Origin: a virus
IMG/VR virus record: IMGVR_UViG_3300045912_000129
Span: 1,653 to 65,652 of that record
DNA: 64,000 nt
Direction: 5' to 3' (one strand)
Shown one piece after another: positions 49,717 to 64,000 of this stretch. Made by a program: the position numbers and the translations under genes. A model generated the notes under the pieces. The model worked only from the letters and a program-made list of their open reading frames with translations. It had not been told where the DNA came from and did not search any database. How positions within the stretch are numbered: the first letter of the stretch is position 1; every line of letters starts with the position of its first letter.

Positions 49717-50268
49717 CTATTTTATATACTTATAGATTAAGTACAAGATTATTAAAAAGAGAAGTAAATAAATAAACAGTATTATTAAAGCTTTAAGATT
49801 ACTAGTTAACCAATAAGAAAAAGAAGTAGTAGTGTTAATAACTTCTTTAACATTAGTAACTATCTTCTCCCTATAAAGAGTATCTTTAATGTTAATAGTA
49901 TCTGTTCTATAAATTACTTCTGGATACTTAGTAATGTTAACTTTAACAGCGTCTTGCTTAATATCTATAACGCCTTTAATTATATTAAACTTATCAGAAA
50001 AAGTAAATACAGTGTCTTTATAAAGCGTATTAAACACAGTATCAATTGTTATTGTATTAGTAACTATAGTGTCATTTATTACTACTTGCTTATCTCTAAC
50101 TATAGTATCTTTAACTATAATAATCGTATCTTTTACTAGTTTTAATTCAGGAAAAGTGTTTACTATACTTTCTATTTTACGCTTAGCACGTTCTTTTCTT
50201 TTATTATACTTTTCTAAAGGTGTTAAACAAGAAGCAAGAACAAAAAGAATTGTTAGTATATATTTCAT
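49717..50268 (-). CDS. Putative unimolecular spanin (lipoprotein with C-terminal TM helix)
   Basis: Signal peptide with lipobox LASC, beta-rich DT-repeat periplasmic part, and C-terminal hydrophobic helix LIILFIYLLLFLIILYLIY. Confidence 0.6.
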   Translation of the reverse strand: MKYILTILFVLASCLTPLEKYNKRKERAKRKIESIVNTFPELKLVKDTIIIVKDTIVRDKQVVINDTIVTNTITIDTVFNTLYKDTVFTFSDKFNIIKGVIDIKQDAVKVNITKYPEVIYRTDTINIKDTLYREKIVTNVKEVINTTTSFSYWLTSNLKALIILFIYLLLFLIILYLIYKYIK

Positions 50269-51005
50269 GACTGTTTATTTGCTAATAGAAGACTTTTAAT
50301 CTTATCTGTTATAGAAACATGAGAGTCCATCATTTTATCATGACAATCTCTTTTAACTATACTTTCAATTTCATAAGTAGTCACTTTAAAAAGAAAGTCA
50401 AAATTAGATAGATTAATATCTTCTTGATTTCTGACAAAATCACCTGTCTTAGCTTGTTTATCAGGGTAATATCTTGAATCTTTAAATAAGAAATGATTAG
50501 TATAAACAATATCACCTACTTCCGGAATAATTACAGCATCTGCTTTTTCTTTATCATATTTAGCAAGTTTTTCTTTTAACTCATAGTAATATAATTGAAC
50601 GTAAGGACTAATTGCCATAATTACTCCTTTATCTATTAAAGGAAAAGGAGTATCAATATAATGAGGTACATCAGTAGTTCTTTTACGTCCATCAATTTGA
50701 CTAATACCTGGTATAATCATAGTTTGTCCTTGTTCATTAGTGTAAACGTCTTTAATAACATTTTCCATAAACATGTGAATAATTAAGTGTTGACCATCTA
50801 GTTGTATCTTTTTAAAATGTTCAATTAAGTCTTTATCATGTAAACCTTTTTTACCAACATACTCAAGATTCCAACGATCTACATAAGCTTGTCTTTCTAT
50901 CCATGATTCAATAGGATTAGTATTAGATTGATTTCTAAAAGCATTATCTACTACACTTGTTTTATTACGCATTGTAGTTGTCGTAGGTCTATTTAATTTA
51001 CTCAT
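50265..51005 (-). CDS. Divergent GroES-like protein with extensions
   Basis: TMIIPG...KGVIMAIS...PEVGDIVY matches the GroES strand pattern (IxLP, GxVxAV, VGDxV). Motif-level match only. Confidence 0.4.
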   Translation of the reverse strand: MSKLNRPTTTTMRNKTSVVDNAFRNQSNTNPIESWIERQAYVDRWNLEYVGKKGLHDKDLIEHFKKIQLDGQHLIIHMFMENVIKDVYTNEQGQTMIIPGISQIDGRKRTTDVPHYIDTPFPLIDKGVIMAISPYVQLYYYELKEKLAKYDKEKADAVIIPEVGDIVYTNHFLFKDSRYYPDKQAKTGDFVRNQEDINLSNFDFLFKVTTYEIESIVKRDCHDKMMDSHVSITDKIKSLLLANKQS

Positions 51006-51022
51006 AGTTAATTAGTTATTAG

Positions 51023-51400
51023 TTAGCAGTTATTAAATCTATTTGGTTTATCAAATTTAAAATTAGTAATATGACCAATTTTTTGATTCATATCTTCAAT
51101 ATACTCTTTAATAATAGGATTATCATCAAATAAGTACCAGTCTTCTTTAGCTCTGTTTTTATTAAGTTTTTTAATAATTCTTGCTCCAGTTGGATTTCCT
51201 TTTTCAAAAGCCATATTTAAACGTCTTATGCGCAATCTAAATACACAAAATTTAGGTATTCTAATATCAGCATAAGGGAGCTTATTAAGAAGATCTCCTA
51301 AATTATCAAAATGTCCATTAACTATTTTTTTTACTTTATTGAAATTAATATTTAGTTTTTCAGAAGTTTGTTTTATCAATGCTTCATAATTCTCTTTCAT
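51023..51400 (-). CDS. HU/IHF-like DNA-binding protein
   Basis: LIKQTSEKLNINFNKVKKIV...IRIPKFCVF. ATG at 51400 overlaps the upstream TGA. Confidence 0.55.
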   Translation of the reverse strand: MKENYEALIKQTSEKLNINFNKVKKIVNGHFDNLGDLLNKLPYADIRIPKFCVFRLRIRRLNMAFEKGNPTGARIIKKLNKNRAKEDWYLFDDNPIIKEYIEDMNQKIGHITNFKFDKPNRFNNC

Positions 51401-51915
51401 TTTACACAAAATTTAAATAAGAAATCAAAAGCTAAATGTCCTTTCTCTTTGATGGCTTTTTTAGTCTTAATCATTAAATCTTTACATTCTTGATTAGGTG
51501 TACAAAAACCATCTTCAGTAGTAATTAAATATTCACTTTTTCTAAGTTTAGTCATACTATTATAAATACTAGTATGTGTTTTATTAAGTTTATTTGCAAT
51601 GTCAATTAATTTAGAATCTTTGTTTCTATAAATCAAAGTAAAATCTAAATCAAGAGTCATCATATATGCCATTAGTTCTAATGGAGCGGGTGATATTTTC
51701 ATATCAACAATTCTGTTATCTACTTTTTTCCATCTTATAATGTTATTTAATTCTAAATAAATTTTATAAAAAGTAAATTCATCTATGCTTGTTAAAGGTT
51801 CTGTTTCTATGATTAGATTGTCAATAATTTCTGTTGGTTTATATTTACCAAACCTAGCTATTTTACAATCTTTAACCATAGATTCTCTTTTATCAAACTT
51901 AATTCCTTTTTCCAT
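51397..51915 (-). CDS. Winged-helix/HTH DNA-binding protein
   Basis: LIDIANKLNKTHTSIYNSMTKLRKSEYL. First gene of the late arm. Confidence 0.5.
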   Translation of the reverse strand: MEKGIKFDKRESMVKDCKIARFGKYKPTEIIDNLIIETEPLTSIDEFTFYKIYLELNNIIRWKKVDNRIVDMKISPAPLELMAYMMTLDLDFTLIYRNKDSKLIDIANKLNKTHTSIYNSMTKLRKSEYLITTEDGFCTPNQECKDLMIKTKKAIKEKGHLAFDFLFKFCVK

Positions 51916-52187
51916 ATTAGTTAATTTAAATAATTAGTTAGTTACTCTGGTTAATTATAACTACAAAGTTATGTTAAACTCTTTCCAAAAAATTATATAA
52001 AAATTTTAAATAGTCAAAACCTACCCCCTCCTGTTATTCAAAATTATTTTATCCCCCCCTACCCTTATCTATATGGGTTTATTTCTTTAAAAAACAGGCC
52101 TAATTTCAATTTTAAATTCAAAGTAATATAAATATACTACTCAATGATTAGAGTGTCTTAAATCGAAAGCTAGAGGGTTTAAAAGGC

Positions 52188-52253
52188 AAATTGAATTTTA
52201 GTTTAAGGGGAGTGATATTTAAAATTGAATTTTAGTTTAAAAGGAGTGATATT
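52188..52253 (+). repeat. Tandem 32-bp direct repeat (2 copies, 30/32 identical)
   Basis: AAATTGAATTTTAGTTTAAGGGGAGTGATATT (52188-52219) and AAATTGAATTTTAGTTTAAAAGGAGTGATATT (52222-52253). Confidence 0.85.
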
Positions 52254-52339
52254 ACCTCCTATAACCACCCCCCTTTAGTTTTGGGAGGATTCCTCCCCCG
52301 GTAGGCATATTGCCTATCGGAAACTTTAAAAACTAAAAA

Positions 52340-52804
52340 ATGAAAATCAATTATTCAAAAGTCCTGGCGGAGCTCCGCCAGGCAGTCCAGACCGGCTCAG
52401 GGAGCGGATGGATTTTATTGACAGAGGACTCACTAAAGGTCCTCATGAATAGCCTCGGCGTGACCTCCGCCGCCGAGCTATTAAGCAAACAAGCGGAGTT
52501 CGTCACGGTACCATGCTATTTCGTACTTGAAACCCCTCCTTCAGAAGGCAAGGGGGCAAAGTACACCAGCCTTGCAAACCCTTTCCAAGGGGTCGAGGGT
52601 GGGCTAACCACCATCGACTGGAGCAATAAGATCTCTACTCCATACGCCTCCGGAGTAATCCGGAAGTGTACCAGAGAGGGTATTGTTTTTTGGTTAGCAG
52701 AAAAGCCGACCGGAAAATACGAAACTGGCTTTTACTACCGTGTCGCCCGCAAGGGCGAATCCAAGGCCTCTGTTAAACAGGGCCTCACGAAAAAACCTGT
52801 ATAA
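52340..52804 (+). CDS. Hypothetical early protein
   Basis: 154 aa with an A-rich leader; first gene on the + arm. Confidence 0.6.
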   Translation: MKINYSKVLAELRQAVQTGSGSGWILLTEDSLKVLMNSLGVTSAAELLSKQAEFVTVPCYFVLETPPSEGKGAKYTSLANPFQGVEGGLTTIDWSNKISTPYASGVIRKCTREGIVFWLAEKPTGKYETGFYYRVARKGESKASVKQGLTKKPV

Positions 52805-52961
52805 GGTTTCCCTAGTTAAATAGGGTTTTTACGCCTATATATACTGACCAAATATAGGCAATATACAGGTCCCCGCGCTATGGGTTAATAGCACGAAGAT
52901 CAACCCCATTATTATAATGGGGTTTCTTTTTATAAACCATTTTGCAACGTAGTTAGCATTT

Positions 52962-53596
52962 GGGGGCAGAGAAAAGGTATAGCTTAGGCTATATTCGCGC
53001 ATCTGTCCCGGCAAGAAGACCTGTCGAGCGCGAACAGGCTATCCTACTCTAGTCGGGAAGTAGGACGAACAGAACCGACCTCCACTTCGGTGTGGAGAAA
53101 TTTCCCTTCGGGGAGCCCTTGTACAGTGGGTGAGGTCAACCTCAACTGTACGATGAACCGCCATGGTGACATGGTACTTAACTCGGTAGTGGGAGTTAAG
53201 CTAAGGGTTGCAAGAAGTTACTCTACGGAGTAATGAGCACTCACTACGGCAGTACCCTACGGGGTGAGGTGTCCTAACAGGCCCTCTCATGAACTGCCCA
53301 CACAGACCCAGTGACGACTGGTAATCTGTGGGATGACACACCGCTGACGAGCGGGAATCGCCTAGTTGACTAGGCGTGGGTTGATCACCCTAACAATCCG
53401 TTCCTACACGTTATGTAGGTTGGTATATCTCGTCGTTGGGAGTATACCGTAAAAAGAAAGAAGCCTGTGGCACGCAGGTGAGCACTCAACGATGACCTCA
53501 CGTCTTACTAAAAATCAAGTAAGAGTGTAGGAAAAAGGAGGAGCGGAGTGGCTTTTCCTAGGATCAATGTGGTTACCACATAAACGATCCAGTGCA
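52962..53596 (+). ncRNA. Candidate large structured ncRNA 1 (about 640 nt), upstream of tRNA-Glu
   Basis: No ORF in the track. More than 15 consecutive hairpins, including C(UUCG)G at 53085 and 53106 and C(UACG)G at 53223 and 53257. Confidence 0.6.
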
Positions 53597-53606
53597 AAAA
53601 TTTTAA

Positions 53607-53678
53607 AGCCCATTCGTCTATCGGTTAGGACGTCAGATTTTCATTCTGAAAAGAGGAGTTCGATTCTCCTATGGGCTG
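53607..53678 (+). tRNA. trnE: tRNA-Glu(UUC), no encoded CCA
   Basis: Acceptor AGCCCAT/ATGGGCT, anticodon arm TCAGA-TT TTC AT-TCTGA, T-arm AGGAG-TTCGATT-CTCCT. Confidence 0.92.
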
Positions 53679-53706
53679 CAAAGCTACTTGCATTTGCAGT
53701 AGCCTA

Positions 53707-53895
53707 ACCTCCCCTACAGCTGCTATGCCGTGTATTGGCTCTAAAGCACTTAGGGGAGGGATTTAATTTTATTCTCTCTTATACTGCAATGCCCTGGCCA
53801 TTTGGAGCAGCGGCAAGACAGGTAAGGAGAATAAAATATCAACAAACCTCCCCTACAGTTGCTTGGGTTCAAGCCGTGAAGCACTTAGGGGAGGA
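53707..53895 (+). repeat. Two copies of a CCTCCCCTA...TAGGGGAGG irregular hairpin
   Basis: Copies at about 53707-53760 and 53847-53895 share ACCTCCCCTACAGYTGCT...AAGCACTTAGGGGAGG. Confidence 0.75.
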
Positions 53896-54152
53896 TTTTA
53901 ATATTAAAACTCCGTTGGTCTATCGGAGTATAAAACATAGACTCCCGCGTTATTCCTGCGGGTATCCCCTCTGGGGATAATAGCTCCCTCATAGAGGGTA
54001 TATCTGACATTTTGCCGTGGTGTCAGATGAATTAGAATGCGGCACCTCGCTAGCATACCGAGGTATATAAATAGTATGCTTATTTTTTAATTCCCCTTAC
54101 GGGGCGTTACCCTTGACGAGACAAGGCGTGACCCTGGAAGGGGTTTTGAATC

Positions 54153-54296
54153 ATGACGATTAAAGAAATATTTAATCTTCTGGTCGACATGTACGACCAG
54201 GAGCTCTACTCCCTCGAGCGTCACCACGTAGGTGATGCTCAATTGTTGGTAGCCTTGGAAAAGGCTATCAACATCTTGAGACCTTTCGTTAAGTAG
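54153..54296 (+). CDS. 47-aa protein (paralogue A, HVGD motif); not in the ORF track
   Basis: MTIKEIFNLLVDMYDQELYSLERHHVGDAQLLVALEKAINILRPFVK. Similar to the next ORF and preceded by the same leader. Confidence 0.65.
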   Translation: MTIKEIFNLLVDMYDQELYSLERHHVGDAQLLVALEKAINILRPFVK

Positions 54297-54495
54297 TGAA
54301 AGGTCTCAAACTCCGTGTCATTCCGGAGTCTAAACATAGAATGACAAACCGCGTTACCTTCCGCGGTATATAAGTAGAAGGCAGTAATATTGACCGCCTA
54401 CACCTGGCGGTATATAAATAAGGTGTATTATTTAATCCCCATTAGGGGCGTTACCCTTGACGAGACAAGGCATAGCCCTGGAAGGGGTTTTCGAT

Positions 54496-54666
54496 ATGGT
54501 GATTACTGAAATGAGCCCAAAGGGCTTAATCAATTTAATATTCAACCTTTATCAGGTTGAATATTATAAAATGCGGGGTCACGTAGGTGATCCCGCCTAC
54601 ATGGCCCTGCTCGAAAAATTAATCGAGCAGCTCGAGGCTTATGTAGGGGAAGACTGGTTCCTCTAA
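54496..54666 (+). CDS. 56-aa protein (paralogue B, HVGD motif)
   Basis: MVITEMSPKGLINLIFNLYQVEYYKMRGHVGDPAYMALLEKLIEQL. Start revised to the ATG at 54496. Confidence 0.65.
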   Translation: MVITEMSPKGLINLIFNLYQVEYYKMRGHVGDPAYMALLEKLIEQLEAYVGEDWFL

Positions 54667-54892
54667 CATAAGCCTCAACTCCGCGTCATTCCGGAGTATA
54701 AATATAGAATGACAACCACGCAACCTCCCGTGGTATACAAATAGGAGGCAGAAGAAATGACCTCGCTGACATACCGAGGTATATAAATAGTATGTTATTT
54801 TTTGCAGTGTAGTTGCACTGCCACCATAAAGTAGTAAACGGGGTGTAAGCCGTTATAACTACATATTGTTCACCTTCCATCCCCGAACTATT

Positions 54893-55507
54893 ATGGAAGG
54901 GAAGAAAAAGGATCGCGAGATCCGTCACTCAGCCCGTAAAATACACGGGTTGAAGAGTCTTCCTTGTCCGCCGATAGTTCGGTGGATGGGAGCATTTGGC
55001 ACTTTTAATGGGGAAGAAAGTGCCAAATGGGAGGCCTCCGACACACGAATGAAGTGTGCGGAGGTACTACTGCCCAATGGCAATGGGTCTTTTATGTCCA
55101 AATGCGGACAGAGATCCATTGGTATTGGTCTCTTAGTAGATCAAGCCAGAACACCATTGTTCAGAGCGTACAACTACGACGCTTGGACGAACAATGGTAA
55201 AAAGGGTTCTGTACCCTTTGGCGACTCTACTAAGTTGTACAGCATGTACAAAACCCACGAAAACTTAGTTTATGTAACTAAGTATCGTGAGGTGGCGGCC
55301 ATGCTACAACTCCACCATAACTACAACAGTTATTTGTGGACAGAGGCCACCATTGGAGACGGGAAGCGAGCACCCGTCTACAAGGCAGTAGTTTGCGATA
55401 CTGCTCGCAGCTGGGCAGTGCGCCAGCAAGCCATAAAAATGGCTGCAGCACTGAACGTTGAGGTCATCTGGGTAAACGACCTCAAGGCTATGAACTTCCC
55501 CACATAG
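54893..55507 (+). CDS. Hypothetical early protein (204 aa)
   Basis: ATG at 54893, followed by a terminator. Confidence 0.65.
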   Translation: MEGKKKDREIRHSARKIHGLKSLPCPPIVRWMGAFGTFNGEESAKWEASDTRMKCAEVLLPNGNGSFMSKCGQRSIGIGLLVDQARTPLFRAYNYDAWTNNGKKGSVPFGDSTKLYSMYKTHENLVYVTKYREVAAMLQLHHNYNSYLWTEATIGDGKRAPVYKAVVCDTARSWAVRQQAIKMAAALNVEVIWVNDLKAMNFPT

Positions 55508-55567
55508 CTCCTAGCAGACGGCACCTCTCTGGTTTTGCAGAAGCTGCCGGAAAAGAAACAAAAAAAA

Positions 55568-55597
55568 AGGAGGTAGACCAGACTACCTCCTATTTTT
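55568..55597 (+). terminator. Intrinsic terminator (possibly bidirectional)
   Basis: A-run, AGGAGGTAG-ACCAGA-CTACCTCCT, then ATTTTT. Confidence 0.8.
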
Positions 55598-55638
55598 CAA
55601 CTAAAATTTTCTTTGAAAGAGAGAAGAAAATTTTTTAA

Positions 55639-56175
55639 CGGGTGAGGGGTGAAATTCCCTGTGGCTAACGACCCGGCTACTATATACATGTTGACATGTA
55701 ATTATAGTTAGCGAACAATGTAGCCTATGGTACTCTCCCAATAAAAGGGTAGTCTTATAAGACTATAGGGAAACCGAGAGTACGTTTACAATAATGACGA
55801 TGATGCAGCTTTACCTGCTAGAAACATCTAGTTATATGTAAACGAGGTGAGTCCTCCAAGTGCGGCACCAGGCTGAGTGAGGGGATGCTGGTGCATTGTT
55901 ACTATTTCCTGCGTAGTAACAATTATTAAAGGTGATAGTGGTACAATCACCTTGCAGTGTTACAAAGAGAGATACTAGGGAGTGGCGTCCCGAAAAGATA
56001 CCTGGCAAGTATCAGTATCGAGAGTAACAAACGGGAATATCGTACCAACGAGGAACACAGGTTCCATAGTCTGCCCGTCCGATAAAGTCCCAATCCCAAA
56101 GGTAATGGGGATACTTATTGGAGAAAGAAGAGCCGTGCCACGCGGTAAAGTATGTGGGAGAGTAAACTCTAAATC
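55639..56175 (+). ncRNA. Candidate large structured ncRNA 2 (about 540 nt)
   Basis: Nested stems (GGCTAC/GTAGCC, GTACTCTC/GAGAGTAC, CGTTTACA/TGTAAACG, GCACCAG/CTGGTGC, TTGTTACTA/TAGTAACAA, AAGGTGAT/ATCACCTT). No credible ORF. Confidence 0.6.
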
Positions 56176-56627
56176 ATAACCAGCTGAAGATAGATACTTT
56201 ATATTTATCTCCAGCTGGTTATATTAAACCATTTGCAGTGTAGTTAGCATTGAAACATAAAAAGTAAAGGCGTTGATCTTACGCCTTAATTGATGCCTTA
56301 ATTGGCTAGAGAAGAGATCAAACCCCTGGTTATACTGTTCGCCTCCGAAAGCGCTGCTTCTGACTTGGCAACATGTATAAAGAATCCGACAGGGCATATC
56401 ACCGTTCTTAGTAGAGCTTCTTGGGTGATAACGATTCTAATATTAATTTAACTCCCGAAATGAAACCAAGCGTTCCTTTTTGAAAGAAAAAGAAAACGCT
56501 TGGTTTCTATCAAACCCTTTGCAGTGTAGTTAGCATTAACCGCGAGAGGCTATCCGCGGTATACAAATAGATGAGCCATTAATTGTTAATAAACCCTCCC
56601 GCTAGCATATCGGGAGTAATAAATAAT

Positions 56628-56828
56628 ATGCTTGTTATGACTCCAATCTTTATTCAGGTGGGGACTACCGTCTACGTGGGCGGTGGTCTCCACCTTGCCC
56701 AGTTTGCCATAGACTGGGCAACAAGAATAGGGAAGGAGTATACTGTACTCCCTTTCGGAGTACAATTCTCCTTCTCATCAGTAGACATGGCCTCACAGGC
56801 CTATGATCTACTGAGATCTATGGCTTAA
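56628..56828 (+). CDS. Small hypothetical protein (66 aa)
   Basis: ATG at 56628 or 56638. The listed TTG start runs through a pseudoknot element. Confidence 0.5.
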   Translation: MLVMTPIFIQVGTTVYVGGGLHLAQFAIDWATRIGKEYTVLPFGVQFSFSSVDMASQAYDLLRSMA

Positions 56829-57036
56829 TTTTATCCCGCTGGCATACCGGGATTAATAAATAGTATGCTTATTTTTAACCATTTGCAGTGTAGTTAGCAT
56901 TGAAACAACTCTTGACGAGGAGTATAAACTACGTATCAGTTCAATCGTCATACGAACTGATTAGCCCATGACGAAATCGGAGTGTGGGACCTCCAACTGT
57001 TTTTTTTACTTCATTAATTAATATATATATTAAATA

Positions 57037-57942
57037 ATGAAGTTTCTAGTTCTCGCCAAACCACTCGCGGTAGAGTTTGGCAGAGAATCCCTTATAGAGG
57101 AATTTATCTCCTCTATGGGGGCGCGTGTGCTTGCGAAAAAGCACATGGTGTGCGATTCGTCCAGGATCGCACGCCATTACCAGCAATTTGCTGGCAAGCC
57201 TTTTTTCCAGGGGCTTGTAAAATATTATACTGGAAAAAATATTGTCGCATATATGTGCGAGTGCGACAATATTGAAGTTCTCATGGCTATCCGCGAAGCC
57301 ATGGGGACAGCTAAAGTTTCTCCCAATTCATTTCGGGAGAAACTTATTGGAGACGTCTATGCAGAACGTTTCCAATCAGTGGGTGTCATTGACAATGGCA
57401 TCCATTGTAGCGATTCTGCTGAGGAAGGACTGCGAGAAATTGCAGTATGGTTTGGTGTGCCACCGACTTCCTCTCGCACAGAAATGGCACACAAGGCGGT
57501 ATGGAAGATTCTTTCTTCCGTATCCAAAGTAGACTCTCTGCAATACGCAGGGGGCGAACACGATGGCACTGCTATCGAGGGTAGTGTCATTGATTTGGAT
57601 TACCGCCTATTGACTAACGACATGCCCTTTGTCGTTAGCCAACTCGAAAAAAAAGGGCTAGTCATTGACAAGCGTAGTGTTGATGACGAAAGTGGGGCTG
57701 AATATGTTAAATTTGAAATCCGTTTTACGGGTGGCAAATGCGACATTGCAGTAGTTCCCACTGCAGCCTACGCAAACCAAGTAAGTAAATCTCATCTGAT
57801 TTACTTGGTTTCTGATACTCTCAAAGATGAGGTAAGAGCTATTAAAGCTAGTGCGAAAGCTACTGGTGATAAACAGCTCTACAAAGACGTAAAGCGGCAA
57901 TGTCGCAAACGTCTACTTGAGAGTATCAACTGGGTGGACTAA
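57037..57942 (+). CDS. ndk: Nucleoside diphosphate kinase fused to a Pol-beta-type nucleotidyltransferase domain
   Basis: N-terminal NDK: KP, HY...GKPFF..LV.Y and NGIHCSDS (phospho-His), ending EIAVWF. C-terminal: YAGG...GTAIEGSVIDLDY and KCDIAVVP. Confidence 0.8.
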   Translation: MKFLVLAKPLAVEFGRESLIEEFISSMGARVLAKKHMVCDSSRIARHYQQFAGKPFFQGLVKYYTGKNIVAYMCECDNIEVLMAIREAMGTAKVSPNSFREKLIGDVYAERFQSVGVIDNGIHCSDSAEEGLREIAVWFGVPPTSSRTEMAHKAVWKILSSVSKVDSLQYAGGEHDGTAIEGSVIDLDYRLLTNDMPFVVSQLEKKGLVIDKRSVDDESGAEYVKFEIRFTGGKCDIAVVPTAAYANQVSKSHLIYLVSDTLKDEVRAIKASAKATGDKQLYKDVKRQCRKRLLESINWVD

Positions 57943-58165
57943 ATAAAGAGAATGTGACGTCCACTCTTGCGTACCACGAGCGCATACTCGTGTAGCTTTT
58001 TTCTAATACGTTTTGTAGTTACCCAACAAAACGTATATACCTATGCCGTGATTCTATTTACTAGATAGCGTAGGTGCAAAGGATACTGGACACCTTTGAA
58101 CAGGAGCATTGGCAGAGTATAGATGTACTCCCCTCAGCCATTAACCACTCAATAAATAAATAAGA

Positions 58166-58720
58166 GTGGATAAAAAAATCTTCTTGTCTATCTACCAGCA
58201 GATAGACACAGATTTTCAGAGCTACGCAGCCAGCGTATGCTCTGTTTTAGGAGGAAACTTCCTCCCTGGTCCCATGAAAACATGGGAATCTTGCAGCCGT
58301 AAAGCAAAAGCAGACGGCTGCGAGATTAGTGACTTGAAAGACATCATCAGATGTTCTTTCATCTTCACTACCGAGGAGGAAGTTATGTATGCGATGAATC
58401 GCATACAATCCCTTGCTGAAGTTGTACGAGTAAAAAATCGTATGACTTCTAAAGGATACAGAGATGTGCTCATCAATGTATCCTTCATGGGAATTGTATG
58501 TGAAATACAATTGCATACAGCTCTTGGTTTAGCAGCCAAAGACGGAAAGGTGATCAATCACCCGACCGTTAATACTTGGTCTGCTAAACTTGGCCCCTTT
58601 GCTGGATGGGGTCACAAGCTCTATGAGCTTGAAAGAGCAGCCTCCCATCCGACTGTTGCAGCTATCATTGCTGTAATGGGTGTATGGTATTACGGATTAG
58701 TCCGTAAACTACTTTCGTAG
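58166..58720 (+). CDS. RelA/SpoT synthetase-like (small alarmone synthetase-fold) protein
   Basis: PMKTWES..RK, DLKDIIRCS, KGYRDVLINV, CEIQLHT and GHKLYE match SYNTH-domain motifs. GTG start. Confidence 0.7.
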   Translation: MDKKIFLSIYQQIDTDFQSYAASVCSVLGGNFLPGPMKTWESCSRKAKADGCEISDLKDIIRCSFIFTTEEEVMYAMNRIQSLAEVVRVKNRMTSKGYRDVLINVSFMGIVCEIQLHTALGLAAKDGKVINHPTVNTWSAKLGPFAGWGHKLYELERAASHPTVAAIIAVMGVWYYGLVRKLLS

Positions 58721-58781
58721 TACCATACAAAAAACTCAGCTATCCAAGTTTCTCGGTTTAGAGGATAGCGAACTACTGTTT

Positions 58782-58900
58782 ATAAGTTACAAGCAGCGTG
58801 TAGTTAATCTACAGGTTAAGAAGATGTGTTATCTTCTCAGGCTGTCTCTGCCAGGGCACAAAAGTGCGTCTAGTAAAGAGGTTCGCAGCTTGTAACTTAT
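58782..58900 (+). ncRNA. Multibranch RNA-like element closed by a perfect 13-bp stem
   Basis: ATAAGTTACAAGC (58782-94) pairs with GCTTGTAACTTAT (58888-900). Inner hairpins TGTAG/CTACA, GAAGAT/ATCTTC and GCAC/GTGC. Confidence 0.5.
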
Positions 58901-58912
58901 AAAATAACTTAT

Positions 58913-59287
58913 ATGACAAAAGTATTCAATTTTGGACACCCACTGTCCCAAAGTGCTATCACTAAGATCGAACAATACTTCGGTCAAGTACAGCACATCA
59001 AAGTGGGTGTCCAATTAAATGTTTTCGATGCGGACGCACCAGGCATCGAACAACAAGTATTAGACGTGGTGCGACCATACGCTACCGATTTTAACGGAGC
59101 GGAGCGTATGGTAATCATTAGTCCAGGAATGAGCAATGCTGCATGGGTATTAGCAGCAATCATTCATGGATTATCGGGGAGATTCCCCGAACTTGTTGAG
59201 CTTCGTCTCAACTCCGATAAAGTCTTTGACTTTTATAGAGTCATCGACTTGCAGGAGTTTAGAAACGAAGTCCGCAAGATCCGTTAG
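58913..59287 (+). CDS. csx15: Csx15-like protein (type III CRISPR accessory, candidate ring nuclease family)
   Basis: FNFGHPL, IEQYFG, PG...AAWVLAAIIHGLSGRFPELVELR and IDLQEFR match the Csx15 pattern as recalled. Confidence 0.78.
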   Translation: MTKVFNFGHPLSQSAITKIEQYFGQVQHIKVGVQLNVFDADAPGIEQQVLDVVRPYATDFNGAERMVIISPGMSNAAWVLAAIIHGLSGRFPELVELRLNSDKVFDFYRVIDLQEFRNEVRKIR

Positions 59288-59349
59288 CAAATATACCCTG
59301 ATTAACAGCTTATGGCACAGGGTATTTAATAACTATAAATCTAAACACT

Positions 59350-59703
59350 ATGATAAAAATAACTAGTGTTTCACAAATATTAAAAGAGGGTTTTACCCTC
59401 GACTTCCTAGTAGGTAAATACATCGCCTACAAAGGATGTATTATCCCCATAATTAACACTCCAACTCTGGAGGTTAATCAATGGGGATTACTACCAGACG
59501 AGATAGAACATCTCGTCAATTTGGATGAGGGGCAAATAGAGTATGAAACTACGTTTGTAGTTTCAGATAATCAAAAAGATTTAGTTCCTTTTCTTGGACT
59601 AAATCCATGCGCTCTCTTCTCACTGGAGGTTAAAAAATACTCCCCTCATACAAACATGAGTGAGGAGGATTTTAAGTACCTCCTTAATTTATTAACAATT
59701 TAA
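59350..59703 (+). CDS. Hypothetical protein
   Basis: 117 aa with ATG and an A-rich leader. Confidence 0.55.
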   Translation: MIKITSVSQILKEGFTLDFLVGKYIAYKGCIIPIINTPTLEVNQWGLLPDEIEHLVNLDEGQIEYETTFVVSDNQKDLVPFLGLNPCALFSLEVKKYSPHTNMSEEDFKYLLNLLTI

Positions 59704-59934
59704 AAATAGCCAAATCAAACCATCTTTGCAGTGTAGTTAGCACTAAAACATATCCCGCTAGCATACCGGGATCAATAAATAGCATGCTTCTACTACTAAG
59801 CAGACGTTTCGATACGTCGTGTTAAATAAGGGCTTAGTAGTAAGGGAGCGTGTCCCGTAGATTAAAACGCTGACTGACAGGAAAGACTGTCTTACCTAGC
59901 TGTGAACTCGTATGAGGTGAGGCTAGGGACATCC

Positions 59935-59995
59935 GGGGTAGAAAATGGCGATTGCTGTAACAACAGCAAAGTGGGTTCGATTCCCACCTATCCTT
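59935..59995 (+). ncRNA. D-armless tRNA-like element (61 nt)
   Basis: Acceptor GGGGTAG/CTATCCT, canonical T-arm GTGGG-TTCGATT-CCCAC, a 10-nt linker in place of the D-arm, and a 7-bp hairpin with a 4-nt loop in place of the anticodon arm. Confidence 0.6.
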
Positions 59996-60082
59996 GCAAA
60001 TTCCCGCTGGCATAACGGGTAAAGTATGCTATATTATTAACCAAACCCGCCGTGCCGGGGTATAATAGCACGATTTAAACGT

Positions 60083-60304
60083 ATGAAATTTAATTTTCAA
60101 ACCATCTTCATTCCCTCCTTGAATTTGGAGGTGAATGAGTTCCAATTTTTGAGCCTTCGGGCTCAAGTTAAACAAGGAGTACTCCCTCCCTTTGATTTTA
60201 CCGATACCAACGGTAAAGTCATTGGAAGCGTAGACTCCAACGGTCGTGTAGAAGGAGAATACCCCTTCACCGACCTTAACGACATGTTAACTACTCTTTT
60301 GTAG
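60083..60304 (+). CDS. Hypothetical protein
   Basis: 73 aa, flanked by pseudoknot elements. Confidence 0.55.
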   Translation: MKFNFQTIFIPSLNLEVNEFQFLSLRAQVKQGVLPPFDFTDTNGKVIGSVDSNGRVEGEYPFTDLNDMLTTLL

Positions 60305-60464
60305 TTAGCATGTCCCCGCTGGCATACCGGGTAAAGTATGCTACCGTAACACCTCGGTTATAATAAGGTGCAGTAATGACTCTGCTGGTATACCGGAGTA
60401 TAAACTAGTATACTGAAACTTCGTTTCTTTGAAAGAAAAAGGAAACGATTAAAAAATTAAACTT

Positions 60465-60737
60465 ATGATGAACAAAGAAATTTTAGATCTCCTTGAGATG
60501 ATTCTCAAAGGAGATCAAGAGGCAATTGCCTCTATTATAAATACCCAAATCAATCGGTTGCAAATTGCAGCCGACGATTGGGACAACAACCATCACGGTA
60601 GCAATAGCTCCATCTACCGTGAGTATCTAGAGATGGAGCTTAGTACAGCAACTGGTATGATTGCTGTACTGAAAAAACATAATCATACCACACTTGCAGA
60701 TAAACTCAGCATTGCTGTAGCTTATTCTGCAGTGTAA
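60465..60737 (+). CDS. Hypothetical helical protein
   Basis: 90 aa with an A-rich leader. Confidence 0.55.
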   Translation: MMNKEILDLLEMILKGDQEAIASIINTQINRLQIAADDWDNNHHGSNSSIYREYLEMELSTATGMIAVLKKHNHTTLADKLSIAVAYSAV

Positions 60738-60856
60738 TTTTTTCCGCTAGCATACCGGGTAAAGTATGCTATCAAACCCTTTGCAGTGTAGTTAGCTATA
60801 CCGCTTGCATACCGGTTATAATAGTATGCTATTCATTAACCAAAAACAATCAGACC

Positions 60857-61102
60857 ATGAAAATAAAAATTAAATCCACCAGTGCATTAGCACGGTGGAT
60901 CAAAGCCATCGAAAACAGTCTCAATATTGCTCGTTCTGAGCAGTATGAGGCAGCTTATATGGGGGAAGATTCTCTTTTCTACGACGAAATCGTAGAAAAA
61001 GGAGAGTCAACTCTTCGTCTCATTGAGAGAAGAGTTAAAAAACTCTCCCCCAAAAAACAAGCAATTCTTAAGCCTCTCATTGAGAGAGCTTGGAATGCTT
61101 AA
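60857..61102 (+). CDS. Small helical protein, paralogue of 63557-end
   Basis: STSALARWIK...LRLIERRVKKLSP...ILKPLIERAWNA aligns with the last ORF. Confidence 0.65.
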   Translation: MKIKIKSTSALARWIKAIENSLNIARSEQYEAAYMGEDSLFYDEIVEKGESTLRLIERRVKKLSPKKQAILKPLIERAWNA

Positions 61103-61221
61103 AACAAATCGCGTAACCTCCCGCGGTATATAAGTAGGAGGCGTTTATAGTTAACACTAGCCCTTTGACAGCTGGGGCTATATAAATGAGCTGTTAATTC
61201 TTTTGAAAAACCAATAAAACT

Positions 61222-61638
61222 ATGAATATGACACACAAAAAAGAAGAAGTAGTTGTAAAACCCTACTTACTAAACATCAGTAACCACCCCTCCTCTGGAT
61301 GGACTGATAAACAAATCATGGCTGCCCGAAGAGATTATCGGGCAATAATTGACTTCTCTTTTCCAAACGTCGACCCTGAGCTCGACGAGGAAGGAGTTCG
61401 TCAACTAGCAGAGAAAACCATTTTTGACATTCTTTGGCATTTGCCAGAGAGAAGTGAGGCATTAGTAGCCCACGTCATGGGCGAAATGTCCTTGGTATAT
61501 CAAATGGTCAATCTGCTGGAGTCTAAAAACATCACTTGTATTTGCAGCACCACCAAGAGGATTGTGGAGGTGCTTCCAAACGGACAAAAACTCAGCAAGT
61601 TTGAGTTTGTCCGTTTTAGACCATATGTAGCTAAATAG
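61222..61638 (+). CDS. csx20: Csx20-like protein (type III CRISPR ring nuclease family)
   Basis: LLNISNHPSSGW...Q..AA, DFSFPNVDP, HVMGEMSL, CSTTKR and FEFVRFRPY match the Csx20 pattern as recalled. Confidence 0.82.
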   Translation: MNMTHKKEEVVVKPYLLNISNHPSSGWTDKQIMAARRDYRAIIDFSFPNVDPELDEEGVRQLAEKTIFDILWHLPERSEALVAHVMGEMSLVYQMVNLLESKNITCICSTTKRIVEVLPNGQKLSKFEFVRFRPYVAK

Positions 61639-62169
61639 CACATATGGTTTAACCGCTAGCATACCGGTTATAATAGTACGCTAACCGTGTAATCTCTCAC
61701 GGTATATAAATAAGAGTAGTATTGACCCTGCTTGCATATCAGGGTATATAAATAGTATGCTTAACTAAACATAAAGGAGTAGAGTACTCGCACCTCTATT
61801 TTCTTTTATGTTTATTTTAATTTATCAACTTTACTTCTTATGGTTTTTAATTTAATTACTTTTCTTTTTTTTCTTTAAGACTTCCCAGGAGTATCTTGTA
61901 GTGCGAGCAAGAGAAACTGGGTGTATCCTATTCTTTTGAGGACAAGAATAGGAAAAATAAAGTCCTCCACTGCTTTAGTGTCATTTTGATACTAAGGCAG
62001 TGTTTTAACCAGATGTTCTTGAAACAAAGAGAACACTGGTTATTAAACTTTTTGCAGTGTAATTAGCTGCAAACCTCTTTAGCATATAGAGGTTATAAAG
62101 AATATGCTGTTTTATGCTTGAAAGAAATTAAAAAGTCTTTCAAGTTTTATTAACATAAAATTTATCACT

Positions 62170-62529
62170 ATGAATCTTCTCTCTTCACTCGACAGTGTAA
62201 ACTTGTTACTGGCAGCAAGTTTACCCTTTGAAGCTTTCTATGAGCAATTCATGGAGAGCTTAACTTTTTGCCGTGAATTTCATGGTAAAGGTTTTGACAA
62301 AGTTGACTTTACCAACTTTGACAATGCCAGCCTTAAAAGACCTGATCTTCTCTTGGGTGTATGTTTTACACCCAAGTATGTGTTCCTATATGCTTACCAT
62401 GGCAAATGGGAGCACTCAAGTCGAGTCAAACTCTCTGCTGAAACGTCTCTTTCAGACTACTTGTCAGCAGTAGAGTCTGTTACCAAAACCTTTGCAGAAA
62501 TAGTTTACAACTACCTCAAAGGTTTGTAA
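62170..62529 (+). CDS. Hypothetical protein
   Basis: 119 aa with ATG. Confidence 0.55.
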   Translation: MNLLSSLDSVNLLLAASLPFEAFYEQFMESLTFCREFHGKGFDKVDFTNFDNASLKRPDLLLGVCFTPKYVFLYAYHGKWEHSSRVKLSAETSLSDYLSAVESVTKTFAEIVYNYLKGL

Positions 62530-62566
62530 AAAACCCCGCTAGCATACCGGGTAAAGTATGCTAATT

Positions 62567-62728
62567 ATTGAGTAAGCTAACGGCTTACAAGTGCAGCAAG
62601 GAGAAATGCCTTGTGATGCAGCCAGCTAGTCATATGACTAACGGTATATGTTATGCAGACATCTGAGAGATGATGCTCCACATATAGCCCGGAGATGGTG
62701 TTTAGTTAGTCCACTAAGCTTACTCAAT
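62567..62728 (+). ncRNA. Multibranch RNA-like element closed by a perfect 12-bp stem
   Basis: ATTGAGTAAGCT pairs with AGCTTACTCAAT. Inner hairpins CAAGG/CCTTG, TAGTCA/TGACTA and CATC/GATG. Confidence 0.5.
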
Positions 62729-62832
62729 TTTTAATGAGTGATCTTGAAAGAAATGACAAGATTGCTTATTACTAACAGCGTAACTTCTCAAGTTTAAAAG
62801 GAAAGTTAATCTTGTGAATTACGCTATAATAT

Positions 62833-62903
62833 ACTTCATTCGTCTAATGGTAAGACGCTAGATTGTCTATCTAGAGATAAGAGTTCGATTCTCTTATGAA
62901 GTG
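62833..62903 (+). tRNA. trnD: tRNA-Asp(GUC), no encoded CCA
   Basis: Acceptor ACTTCAT/ATGAAGT, anticodon arm CTAGA-TT GTC TA-TCTAG, T-arm AAGAG-TTCGATT-CTCTT. Confidence 0.92.
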
Positions 62904-63047
62904 CAACCGTGTAACTTTCACGTTAAAAAAGTACTCTGTAACACTCAGAGTTTAAATATAAAGTGTTTTCACTATTTATTTTTTCACCACCCCGCAAGGG
63001 CGTTACCCTTAACGAGATAAGGCCATGCTCTGGAAGGAGATTAAACC

Positions 63048-63377
63048 ATGGTAAAAGTACAGTCAATCAGTGTAGTGTGCCAGCTAAAAGGCTTGAAAAG
63101 CCTTGTTAACAAGTACTGTCTTCTTCCTAGTGGAGAGATAGTGTTTGTTAATAAATGTCCAAAGATAAAAATGGACCATACAGGGAAAACTATGGTAGAG
63201 TTTAATGGGGATCAATGCGTCCCCATTGAGAGAACCATAGCGTTTTCCAAACACCAAGAACCATTAACTAATTTTCAAACCCTAGCTAACAAGCTATGGT
63301 GTTTGAAGATTAGGAAAAGACCCTCAGACGTACCACTTGGTGTTTACCGGGTGTGTAAAACGTTGATGGGGGTATGA
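63048..63377 (+). CDS. Hypothetical protein behind the third structured leader
   Basis: 109 aa. Confidence 0.55.
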   Translation: MVKVQSISVVCQLKGLKSLVNKYCLLPSGEIVFVNKCPKIKMDHTGKTMVEFNGDQCVPIERTIAFSKHQEPLTNFQTLANKLWCLKIRKRPSDVPLGVYRVCKTLMGV

Positions 63378-63556
63378 TCTTGGTAAAACCGCGTAACTCC
63401 CGCGGTATACAAATAGGAGCAGCATTAATCCGCTAGCATACCGGTTATAATAGTGTGCTATATTAAACCTTTTGCACTGTAGTTAGCAACAAACCTCGTA
63501 AGCACACCGAGGTATATAAGTAGTGTGCTATTCATTAACCATAAAAACATCAAACC

Positions 63557-64000
63557 ATGAAAAGAACTTTTCAGACGAACCAAGAGTTCGTCGCAGCAAT
63601 GTACCAAATGAGAGCCATCAGCACCCTCACTAAATGGATCAAACAGATCCAATCCATTCGCAGCATTGCTCGTTATGAAGAGCATGATGCGGTTATGGGA
63701 GGAGCCGACTCCTCTCTGTACGAGGTTCTCGTTCCTTCAACCGATGCTTCTCTTCGCATCATTGAAAGGGAAGTTGCAGAACTCTCCCCTGAAGACCAAA
63801 CCATCTTCAAGCCTCTTATTGATAGTGCTTGGGGTGCTTATTCCCCAACCGAAAAAGCTGCACACTTAGAGGAGGACCAAGAGTTCTCTGAAACAGTGTG
63901 CAAAAAAGCGGTCAGCACACTCAGCAAATGGCTGAAAAATCTCCAAGAAATCCGTATCATTGTTCGTCATGAAAAACATGATGCGATTATTGGAGGAGGA
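63557..64000 (+). CDS. Internally repeated helical protein (3'-truncated; not in the ORF track)
   Basis: ATG at 63557, open to the window end. AISTLTKWIKQIQSIRSIARYEEHDAVMGG is repeated as AVSTLSKWLKNLQEIRIIVRHEKHDAIIGG. Confidence 0.7.
   Translation, partial: MKRTFQTNQEFVAAMYQMRAISTLTKWIKQIQSIRSIARYEEHDAVMGGADSSLYEVLVPSTDASLRIIEREVAELSPEDQTIFKPLIDSAWGAYSPTEKAAHLEEDQEFSETVCKKAVSTLSKWLKNLQEIRIIVRHEKHDAIIGGG

What the first reader, a model, noticed from the sequence alone, without database searches (positions are those of the whole stretch)
53909..63530. About 30 dispersed, covarying H-type pseudoknots resembling type III (CptI-like) RNA antitoxins, with no toxin gene recognised
Seen: S1-loop-S1'-A-rich linker-S2' units starting at 53909, 53944, 54002, 54044, 54310, 54348, 54393, 54678, 54715, 54760, 56539, 56596, 56833, 59752, 60002, 60045, 60314, 60343, 60379, 60742, 60799, 61108, 61158, 61651, 61684, 61725, 61926, 62072, 62534, 62933, 63388, 63428 and 63493. 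Example: ACCTCG-CTAGCATAC-CGAGGT-ATATAAATA-GTATGCT. S2 pairing is kept while sequence changes (AGCATAC/GTATGCT, AGCACAC/GTGTGCT, GGTATAC/GTATACT, GTCATTC/GAATGAC, CCTTC/GAAGG, TACACCT/AGGTGTA, CCTCC/GGAGG, ACAGCT/AGCTGT, AACACT/AGTGTT, GAGGAC/GTCCTC), and S1 covaries too. Known: type III TA antitoxins are 35-45-nt H-type pseudoknots, and phage phiTE escapes ToxIN with pseudo-ToxI repeats. As I recall it, CptI has a GGUAUAUAAAU S1'-L3 junction like these. Inference: a diversified library of antitoxin-mimic decoy RNAs. Alternatives are exonuclease-blocking transcript caps or RNAP signals.
Basis: partly seen in the sequence, partly recalled or inferred. Interest (0 to 1): 0.93.

Follow-up and report, generated by a model that had tools for sequence, protein, structure and literature searches.

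The report
Repeated pseudoknots punctuating phage early genes
A hot-spring phage carries 34 small, covarying RNA pseudoknots placed just after stop codons and just after promoter-like motifs; the same knot sits between housekeeping genes of Calescibacteriota bacteria, so it looks like a cis-acting transcript "punctuation" element rather than a library of antitoxin decoys.

Summary
All 33 listed sites, plus a 34th just beyond the window, fit S1-L1-S2-S1'-A-rich L3-S2'. A strict perfect-pairing scan finds 15 on the island's + strand, 1 on the - strand, 0 in the other 52 kb and 0.05 in shuffles. Both helices covary: 95-98% of cells are paired, against 30-45% when partners are slid.

The recalled CptI likeness also holds. 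E. rectale CptI (primer in PMC4627078) reads ACCAC...GUGGU-AUAUAAAUG, the same S1/9-nt loop core.

The decoy reading is not supported:
- The same unit sits as a single copy at orthologous intercistronic sites in Calescibacteriota genomes (rplJ-rplL and others). It starts at the upstream stop codon, and S2 covaries between species.
- In the phage every unit is intergenic. Ten follow a stop codon by 4-13 nt, five follow a promoter-like motif by 2-9 nt, and eight precede a T-run.
- Units are not near-identical tandem repeats.
- No toxin gene was detected.

Best reading (about 0.5): thermostable cis-acting pseudoknots that punctuate early transcripts, protecting ends or insulating cistrons, taken from or shared with the likely host lineage. 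No RNA data exist, so the function is inferred. This deployment of a CptI-like fold is apparently undescribed.

The parts
53909..53943 (+). unit (S1 6, L3 7, S2 7)
53944..53981 (+). atypical unit (S1 5, G+C-rich L3; weakest member)
54002..54044 (+). variant unit (S1 7, loop 13)
54044..54080 (+). canonical unit, followed by a T-run
54310..54346 (+). unit, 13 nt after the stop of ORF 54153-54296; first of an array of three
54348..54381 (+). unit, second of the array
54393..54427 (+). unit, third of the array, T-rich tail
54678..54713 (+). unit, 11 nt after the stop at 54666; first of a paralogous array of three
54715..54748 (+). unit; S1 and S2 changed on both sides relative to its paralogue at 54348
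54760..54797 (+). unit, followed by a T-run
56539..56577 (+). unit 3 nt after a promoter-like motif (S2 with a bulge)
56596..56632 (+). unit; its S2' overlaps a possible start codon of ORF ..56828
56833..56869 (+). unit 4 nt after the stop at 56828, followed by a T-run
59752..59788 (+). unit 9 nt after a promoter-like motif (one A-C mismatch in S2)
60003..60031 (+). short-type unit (S1 4 bp CCCG/CGGG, L3 4-5 nt)
60045..60072 (+). short-type unit, 10 nt before the start at 60083
60315..60343 (+). short-type unit 10 nt after the stop at 60304; first of an array of three
60343..60370 (+). short-type unit (L3 TATAATA)
60379..60415 (+). unit (S1 6 with one G-U pair, L3 8)
60743..60771 (+). short-type unit 5 nt after the stop at 60737
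60800..60829 (+). short-type unit 2 nt after a promoter-like motif, 27 nt before the start at 60857
61108..61141 (+). unit 5 nt after the stop at 61102
61158..61197 (+). unit (S1 7, S2 9), 24 nt before the start at 61222
61652..61683 (+). short-type unit 13 nt after the stop at 61638 (one mismatch in S2)
61684..61716 (+). unit (S2 of 4 bp)
61725..61760 (+). canonical unit
61926..61967 (+). variant unit (S1 8, loop 12, L3 AAAATAAA)
62072..62109 (+). unit 3 nt after a promoter-like motif, followed by a T-run
62535..62563 (+). short-type unit 5 nt after the stop at 62529
62933..62967 (+). unit after tRNA-Asp, T-rich tail
63388..63419 (+). unit 10 nt after the stop at 63377 (S2 of 4 bp)
63429..63460 (+). 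short-type unit
63493..63529 (+). canonical unit 4 nt after a promoter-like motif, 27 nt before the start at 63557
56518..56535 (+). one of 8 copies of TTTGCAGTGTAGTTAGCA. The others start at 52941, 56232, 56882, 59725, 60780, 62051 and 63471. Promoter-like context element; five copies are followed by a unit within 2-9 nt.
   Evidence: 8 copies against 0.09 expected

Best explanation
The units are cis-acting RNA elements. They are compact H-type pseudoknots in which a conserved G+C-rich S1 (ACCNCG/CGNGGU) is clamped by a conserved A-rich 9-nt L3 (AUAUAAAUA). This is probably the extended A-minor-twist triplex solved in CptI. S2 is free to vary as long as it pairs.

They punctuate the + strand transcripts of a 12-kb, 40-47% G+C early/accessory island of a 28% G+C Crassvirales-like hot-spring phage. 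One unit or a short array sits directly after most stop codons. One sits directly after five of the eight phage-specific promoter-like motifs.

The likely action is that of a thermostable roadblock. It would protect the 3' and 5' ends of mono- or oligocistronic RNAs from exonucleases and 5'-end-dependent decay, and insulate neighbouring cistrons. Where a U-tract follows, it could help termination.

The element type is not a phage invention. Calescibacteriota, the probable host lineage, use single copies at a few operon junctions such as rplJ|rplL.

Shown: the fold, the positions and the bacterial counterparts. Inferred: RNA-level action, end protection or insulation, and the host assignment.
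For: - Fold: both helices covary. Loop lengths fit H-type geometry, and S1 length tracks L3 length.
- Strand and place: 15 versus 1 strict hits on the + and - strands, and none outside the island. All 33 units are intergenic, although the listed ORFs fill 48% of the island.
- Position: 10 gene ends are followed by a unit within 4-13 nt. Five units start 2-9 nt after the promoter-like motif. Eight of 33 have >=6 T in the next 10 nt, against 4% background. The last island ORF ends with a unit plus TTTTT.
- Host-lineage counterparts: the unit starts at the rplJ stop codon, about 30 nt before rplL, in G001, G002, G006, G007 and G008. Other units sit between co-directional genes before SDR-, aldolase-, ilvE- and cutA-like genes. 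S2 differs but still pairs between orthologues.
- Lineage specificity: model R2 hits 7 of 11 Calescibacteriota genomes at E<=0.1. It hits 0 of 101 Bacteroidota, 0 of 150 Clostridia and 0 of 3 others.
- Two unrelated 50% G+C phages carry one unit right after a small gene's stop, followed by a T-run.
- Each helix alone is marginal at 70 C: -1.8 and -0.4 kcal/mol. This fits selection for a knotted, triplex-braced fold in a hot-spring host.
- Sequence diversity among repeats is expected if only structure is selected and recombination between repeats is costly. Strain contigs do show deletions between similar units.
Against: - No RNA data: no RNA run holds this sequence. Transcript ends, processing and even transcription of the units are unproven.
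- Conventional hairpin/T-run terminators also exist in the island, so the units are not needed for termination.
- Arrays of 2-4 units are more than end protection needs.
- Units within 0-13 nt of a stop codon must be melted by each terminating ribosome. That fits a translational role at least as well.
- The late genes of the phage have none, and the bacteria have only about 5 per genome. So this is not a generic stabiliser.
- The CptI-like core keeps a protein-binding or decoy role open.
- The host link rests only on the shared motif, habitat and low G+C. No spacer or prophage match was found.
Confidence: 0.5

Rival explanations
1. Translation-level intercistronic elements. The knot sits at or just after the stop codon and just upstream of the next ribosome-binding region. 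It would control what the terminating ribosome does (blocking scanning or re-initiation, uncoupling cistrons), or recruit or park ribosomes for the downstream gene. That would set expression ratios such as L7/L12 against L10.
For: - In the bacteria S1 begins at the last base of the upstream stop codon. S2' ends 9-35 nt before the next start.
- In the phage the first unit is 4-13 nt from the stop.
- Three SD-less phage genes start 24-27 nt after a unit, two of them (60857, 63557) with a near-identical leader.
- rplJ|rplL is a junction where unequal output is needed (established stoichiometry of L10 to L7/L12).
Against: - In the phage the distance from the last unit to the next start varies from -7 to more than 400 nt.
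- Some units follow promoters or tRNAs rather than ORFs.
- Arrays of three are not explained.
Confidence: 0.17
2. The units are excised or exposed as small RNAs that mimic type III (CptI-like) antitoxins, or otherwise sponge host endoribonucleases. Different S2 sequences would serve different toxins.
For: - The S1/L3 core matches E. rectale CptI, in the part that forms the A-minor twist needed for antitoxicity (PMC4627078).
- Unit size is 29-43 nt, in arrays of 2-4 at 29-45-nt spacing.
- The island also carries Csx15 and Csx20 homologues, which are candidate counter-defence genes.
- Phage pseudo-ToxI mimicry is an established precedent (own knowledge; Blower et al. 2012, not re-read here).
Against: - Identical architecture occurs as conserved single copies inside housekeeping operons of Calescibacteriota, with no toxin nearby.
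- There are no near-identical tandem repeats.
- Flanks are not conserved, so no common cleavage site exists.
- Positions track ORF ends and promoters.
- ToxN is not found in the phage contig or in 11 genomes of the candidate host phylum, though without a positive control.
- CptI/CptN pairs are cognate-specific (PMC4627078), and the conserved part here is the structural core, not the tails that enter the toxin.
Confidence: 0.12
3. Transcription signals read on nascent RNA by the phage virion RNA polymerase or the host polymerase. They would act as pause, termination (knot plus U-tract) or antitermination elements, comparable in logic to HK022 put RNAs or nut sites placed just downstream of early promoters.
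For: - Five units start 2-9 nt after the promoter-like motif.
- Eight are followed by T-runs, a six-fold enrichment.
- The island ends with a unit plus TTTTT.
- L012 and L037 have a unit followed by a T-run after a gene.
Against: - Three quarters of the units lack a U-tract.
- The bacterial units inside rplJ-rplL and other operons lack one too.
- Ordinary terminators are present in the island.
Confidence: 0.12
4. DNA-level reading. The conserved TATAAATA/TATAAT in L3 is a promoter element (T4-late-like, sigma-70 -10-like or archaeal TATA-like), or the units are protein-binding or recombination sites in DNA.
For: - L3 contains TATAAATA, identical to the T4 late promoter consensus (own knowledge).
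- Strain variants recombine at units.
Against: - A promoter does not explain compensatory changes in two interleaved helices. With a start site downstream of the TATA, S2' could not pair with untranscribed S2.
- Three copies per gene junction are not expected.
- The sigma-70-like scan is barely above shuffles, 38 against 29 +/- 5.
- Bacterial units lie inside operons.
Confidence: 0.04

Closest known systems
CptI, the RNA antitoxin of the CptIN type III toxin-antitoxin system (E. rectale; PDB 4RMO; PMC4627078)
   Same: - H-type pseudoknot.
- S1 ACCAC/GUGGU against ACCNCG/CGNGGU here.
- L1 of about 1 nt.
- A 9-nt A-rich loop AUAUAAAUG against AUAUAAAUA, crossing the S1 minor groove.
- S2 of 5-6 bp.
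   Different: - CptI is 45 nt with single-stranded tails that enter the toxin.
- It is encoded as about 2 near-identical tandem repeats upstream of cptN and is cut out by CptN.
- Here units are 29-43 nt and all differ in sequence.
- They have no conserved tails and no toxin gene.
- They sit at ORF ends and promoters, and also occur singly in bacterial housekeeping operons.
T7 early-region RNase III sites and bacterial REP/intercistronic stabiliser hairpins (own knowledge)
   Same: Repeated, structure-conserved but sequence-diverse elements placed between cistrons of phage early or operon transcripts. They define and protect mRNA ends.
   Different: Those are simple or bulged hairpins with a known nuclease. 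These are triplex-braced pseudoknots, the nuclease is unknown and no end mapping exists.
preQ1-I riboswitch aptamer (Rfam RF00522)
   Same: A small H-type knot of similar size: a 5-6-bp P1, an A-rich 3' tail in the P1 minor groove and P2 formed with the loop.
   Different: - No Rfam match even in 57-131-nt search spaces.
- P2 here is 5-8 bp and constitutive.
- Loop residues are not conserved, so there is no ligand pocket.
- There are 34 copies, unrelated to queuosine genes.
Pseudo-ToxI of phage phiTE (RNA mimicry of a type III antitoxin; own knowledge)
   Same: Phage-borne pseudoknot repeats resembling a type III antitoxin.
   Different: phiTE carries near-identical tandem copies of the cognate ToxI sequence at one locus. 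Here the units are diversified and dispersed at gene boundaries, and no cognate toxin is known.

Membership tests
Type III TA antitoxin RNAs (ToxI/CptI/TenpI) | Small H-type pseudoknot fold | tested here: met
   Two interleaved helices covary: 95-98% paired, against 30-45% in slid controls.
Type III TA antitoxin RNAs (ToxI/CptI/TenpI) | CptI-type core: S1 plus a 9-nt A-rich loop forming the A-minor twist | tested here: met
   By sequence only. CptI_Er reads GUGGUAUAUAAAUG against the unit consensus CGNGGUAUAUAAAUA. PWM P is about 0.0015, and the 11-mer is exact in 5 units. The tertiary structure was not tested.
Type III TA antitoxin RNAs (ToxI/CptI/TenpI) | Near-identical tandem direct repeats (1.9-5.6 copies of 31-62 nt; PMC3401426) | tested here: not met
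   TRF finds no such array in 52000-64000. Neighbouring units differ in both S1 and S2.
Type III TA antitoxin RNAs (ToxI/CptI/TenpI) | Toxin gene (ToxN/CptN/TenpN) directly downstream, after a terminator | tested here: not met
   No toxin family among 21 island and flanking ORFs in Pfam, NCBIfam or PADLOC at E<=0.1. PF13958 gives no six-frame hit in the contig. Three ORFs gave no toxin match against PDB sequences. Caveat: I could not confirm that these libraries hold a CptN model.
Type III TA antitoxin RNAs (ToxI/CptI/TenpI) | Conserved single-stranded flanks holding the toxin's cleavage site | tested here: not met
   Flanks read directly differ between units.
Type III TA antitoxin RNAs (ToxI/CptI/TenpI) | Binds and neutralises a toxin | not testable with these tools
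   Needs kill/rescue assays or EMSA.
Any Rfam family (including ToxI and preQ1-I/II/III) | Covariance-model match | tested here: not met
   Only two tRNAs reach gathering score in the window. Nothing relevant at E<=5-10 over the island, over single units or over the bacterial loci.
Intrinsic terminators | Stable structure immediately followed by a U-tract | tested here: inconclusive
   Eight of 33 units have >=6 T in the next 10 nt, against 4% background. The other 25 do not.
Intercistronic mRNA stabiliser/processing elements (functional class: REP, T7 RNase III sites) | Repeated structured elements between cistrons, in the sense orientation, outside ORFs | tested here: met
   All units lie on the coding strand and are intergenic. 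Ten of them sit 4-13 nt after stops. The bacterial units lie between co-directional genes.
Intercistronic mRNA stabiliser/processing elements (functional class: REP, T7 RNase III sites) | RNA ends or half-life boundaries at the elements | not testable with these tools
   No RNA run holds the sequence.

The most novel reading that the evidence does not exclude
The phage has amplified and diversified a CptI-fold pseudoknot into an RNA counter-defence layer. The knots would act as sponges or decoys for host endoribonucleases, such as type III TA toxins or CRISPR-associated RNases. Alternatively they would act as armour that makes early transcripts resistant to such RNases. Either way they would work beside the Csx15/Csx20-like proteins encoded in the same island.
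Probability: 0.13. Interest if true: 0.95.

Novelty: new variant of a known kind. Interest (0 to 1): 0.76.

Why it matters
If the reading is right, this would be a family of triplex-braced pseudoknots used as repeated gene-boundary punctuation in a phage. I found no published precedent for that, nor for the same element at conserved operon junctions (rplJ|rplL) in an uncultured thermophilic phylum.

It would give:
- a new RNA motif with more than 40 natural covarying examples for structural work;
- a candidate thermostable mRNA-stabilising or insulating part for synthetic biology;
- an RNA-based clue to the host of a Crassvirales-like hot-spring phage outside Bacteroidota;
- an evolutionary link between a housekeeping mRNA element and the CptI antitoxin fold, whichever way the ancestry runs.

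Tried and rejected
- Similar DNA in the phage collection: none, in near or distant mode.
- Promoter-like motif in IMG/VR and in metagenome contigs: only chance single hits, with no units nearby.
- 5'UTR-like element in IMG/VR: none.
- Generic unit pattern in IMG/VR: 35 mostly chance hits. Only L012 and L037 are true units.
- TerL relatives at about 50% identity: no G+C-rich island or units in the 10 kb covered.
- RNA evidence: no RNA run holds the sequence.
- Host link by nucleotide matches or spacers, or by the capsid protein, in 11 Calescibacteriota genomes: nothing convincing, only A+T-rich low-identity matches.
- Model R1, built from GCATAC-type units, was biased by the S2 sequence and pulled in false hits. 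It was replaced by R2.
- MAFFT on all 21 long-type units misregistered the 5' strand of S1. Equal-geometry subsets and a model-guided alignment were used instead.
- CptI repeats of other species could not be compared, because the supplement of PMC3401426 is not held. I also had no handle on an E. rectale genome on which to score R2 against real CptI.
- A literature search for the core sequence found nothing relevant.
- Chimeric assembly was considered and set aside. One Logan contig bridges the 28% to 45% G+C junction (50000-53469, no differences), and a second sample covers both sides at similar depth. The first run may, however, be the source sample.

Full report
**Setting.** The window is 64 kb of a 66.2-kb viral contig.
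- CheckV rates the contig 43% complete.
- Capsid, portal and terminase match PHROG families.
- The DNA is held only by hot-spring and microbial-mat metagenomes, and no RNA run holds it.
- The genome is 26-31% G+C. A block from about 52.3 kb to window-equivalent 64.2 kb is 40-47% G+C, after which the contig returns to 16% G+C repeats.
- One Logan contig bridges the left junction with no differences, and a second sample covers both sides. I therefore treat the island as part of the phage.

The island holds:
- small + strand ORFs, mostly without family matches, apart from an NDK domain and Csx15 and Csx20 homologues;
- two tRNAs;
- several long ORF-free structured tracts;
- eight copies of an 18-nt motif, TTTGCAGTGTAGTTAGCA, against 0.09 expected.

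Every listed start parses as S1, a loop containing S2, S1', an A+T-rich L3 and S2'.
- A deliberately strict scan required perfect Watson-Crick S1 and S2 of at least 5 bp and an A-rich L3. It gives 15 hits on the island's + strand and 1 on its - strand. It gives none in the other 52 kb on either strand, and a mean of 0.05 in 100 dinucleotide shuffles.
- About 330 kb of unrelated metagenome loci gave three or four loose hits.
- A loop pairs with its own downstream segment over 6.3 contiguous bp on average, but only 2.2 bp with other units' segments. There are 21 different S1 strands and 21 different S2' 5-mers.
- On gap-free subsets, 96% and 98% of cells are paired, with 7 of 11 and 9 of 13 pairs changed on both sides. 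Slid controls give 30-45%.
- A model-guided alignment of 25 phage and bacterial units gives 95.5% paired. It has 49 doubly changed cells against 15 +/- 2.8 in shuffles.
- Geometry is that of a classical H-type knot: L1 of 0-3 nt, no L2, and L3 scaling with S1. L3 is 9 nt for a 6-bp S1 and 4-7 nt for a 4-bp S1 (rho 0.52, p = 0.002).
- S1 and L3 are conserved in sequence (ACCNCG/CGNGGU, AUAUAAAUA), while S2 is free.
- A 34th unit lies 8 nt after the last island ORF, just outside the window, and is followed by TTTTT.

**The CptI recollection is right.** The paper on CptIN (PMC4627078) prints a primer whose reverse complement is the 45-nt CptI repeat. Its numbering fits the text (A27, A29, U30, G35).
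- It reads S1 ACCAC/GUGGU, then the 9-nt loop AUAUAAAUG that forms the extended A-minor twist on S1, with a one-base L1.
- GGUAUAUAAAU is exact in five units.
- A weight matrix of the units' S1'-L3 segment scores CptI at the homologous position with P of about 0.0015 per random 45-mer.

The units therefore probably share that tertiary module. This is a resemblance of fold and core sequence, not evidence of function.

**Where the units sit.** All 33 are intergenic, although the ORFs fill 48% of the island.
- Ten gene ends are followed by a unit within 4-13 nt.
- Five units begin 2-9 nt after the promoter-like motif.
- Eight are followed by a T-rich decamer, against a 4% background.
- Units come singly or in arrays of two to four at 29-45-nt spacing. 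The members of an array always differ.
- Two arrays (54310-54427 and 54678-54797) are paralogous. Their middle units differ by compensatory changes in both helices.
- None occurs among the late genes.

**The decisive lead came from outside the phage.** A pattern for one S1 class, scanned over one genome per prokaryote species, gave five hits. Two were true units in hot-spring MAGs of Candidatus Calescibacteriota.
- There the unit starts at the last base of the rplJ stop codon and ends about 30 nt before rplL.
- A covariance model built only on S1 and conserved columns (R2) found units in 7 of the 11 genomes of that phylum at E<=0.1.
- The hits lie at orthologous junctions: rplJ|rplL in five genomes, before an SDR-type gene in four, and before an aldolase-like gene in two. 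Others lie before ilvE-like and cutA genes.
- Every one is between co-directional genes and starts at or next to the upstream stop.
- S2 sequences differ between species but still pair.
- The same model found nothing in 101 Bacteroidota, 150 Clostridia or three other genomes, although stricter filters apply to large batches.
- No Rfam family matches the phage or the bacterial units.
- Two unrelated 50% G+C viral contigs carry one unit each, right after a homologous small gene and before a T-run.

**Interpretation.** A conserved single copy inside rplJ-rplL cannot be an antitoxin or a decoy. It is a cis-acting mRNA element. The phage units share its architecture, strand and stop-codon-proximal placement.

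The simplest reading is that the phage uses the same device at high density on its island transcripts. Units after stops would give protected 3' ends. Units after the promoter-like motifs would give structured 5' ends. Arrays would leave a knot on both products of a cut between cistrons. Knots followed by U-tracts may help termination.

Each helix alone is marginal at 70 C, so a triplex-braced knot makes sense in this habitat. S2 diversity follows from selection on structure alone plus the cost of recombination between repeats. Such recombination is visible as deletions between similar units in strain contigs.

I put this reading at about 0.5. The translation-control variant is a close second, because a knot that begins at the stop codon must be melted by every terminating ribosome.

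**The decoy model is not excluded, at about 0.12.**
For it:
- the CptI-like core;
- the array format;
- the counter-defence flavour of the island.

Against it:
- the bacterial housekeeping copies;
- the absence of near-identical tandem repeats;
- the lack of conserved flanks;
- the lack of any toxin gene;
- the absence of ToxN from the contig and from the 11 Calescibacteriota genomes, in a search that had no positive control.

I could not test for CptN itself.

**Host.** The shared motif, the habitat and the low G+C point to Calescibacteriota. Nucleotide and capsid searches gave no independent link. The assignment is an inference.

**Verdict.** This is a real and statistically robust RNA motif family with a CptI-like core. 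It is newly seen as gene-boundary punctuation in a phage and in an uncultured thermophilic phylum. Its function is unproven for want of RNA data.

Noticed in passing
window 52941, 56232, 56518, 56882, 59725, 60780, 62051, 63471: There are eight copies of TTTGCAGTGTAGTTAGCA (up to 2 mismatches), usually preceded by AAACC. They stand ahead of genes and structured RNAs. The motif is a candidate phage-specific early promoter and was not found in IMG/VR or JGI contigs outside chance hits.
   Followed up: partly
window 58913-59287 and 61222-61638: Phage-borne homologues of the CRISPR-associated proteins Csx15 (NCBIfam 1.4e-16) and Csx20 (PADLOC 3.2e-32), with no cas genes or array nearby. They are candidate anti-type III CRISPR factors.
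   Followed up: partly
window 58166-58720: A 184-aa protein weakly similar to the (p)ppApp synthetase Tas1 (6OX6, E 0.002). A weak RelA_SpoT Pfam hit (E 0.011) among the 21 ORFs scanned together may be the same protein. It may be a small alarmone-synthetase-like enzyme.
   Followed up: no
window ~54086-54152, ~54430-54496, ~62985-63047: A conserved 5'UTR-like element appears three times directly upstream of a start codon. It has a CCCC-TTA-GGGG hairpin, then CGTTACCCTTGACGAGACAAGGC, and ends in CCTGGAAGGGG. It has no Rfam match and no IMG/VR match.
   Followed up: partly
window 52962-53596, 55639-56175, 59790-59995, 62560-62830: Long ORF-free, hairpin-rich tracts, two of them next to tRNA genes. 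The tract at 59790-59995 ends in a tRNA-like T-arm/acceptor segment (weak tmRNA 3'-end match at 59971-59987). None reaches an Rfam threshold.
   Followed up: partly
window 56256->59714, 60742->63461, 60760->60820 (Logan contigs of runs X4 and X6): Strain variants join promoter-like motifs or similar units to each other, skipping 0.06-3.5 kb or replacing the stretch with other sequence. The island appears to be shuffled in cassettes by recombination at its repeats.
   Followed up: no
window 52188-52253 and contig end (genome 65,900-66,227): A 34-nt direct repeat (1.9 copies) sits at the left edge of the island. Beyond the right edge lie 16% G+C repeats built on TACTCTCTTTATAGGATAT. These may be genome-end or origin-like sequences.
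   Followed up: no
L012:770-807 (+) and L037:780-817 (-): Two unrelated 50% G+C viral contigs each carry one canonical unit (CCGCG...CGCGGTATATAAATA-GATGGG) after a homologous small gene, followed by a T-run. The motif therefore extends beyond this phage and Calescibacteriota.
   Followed up: partly
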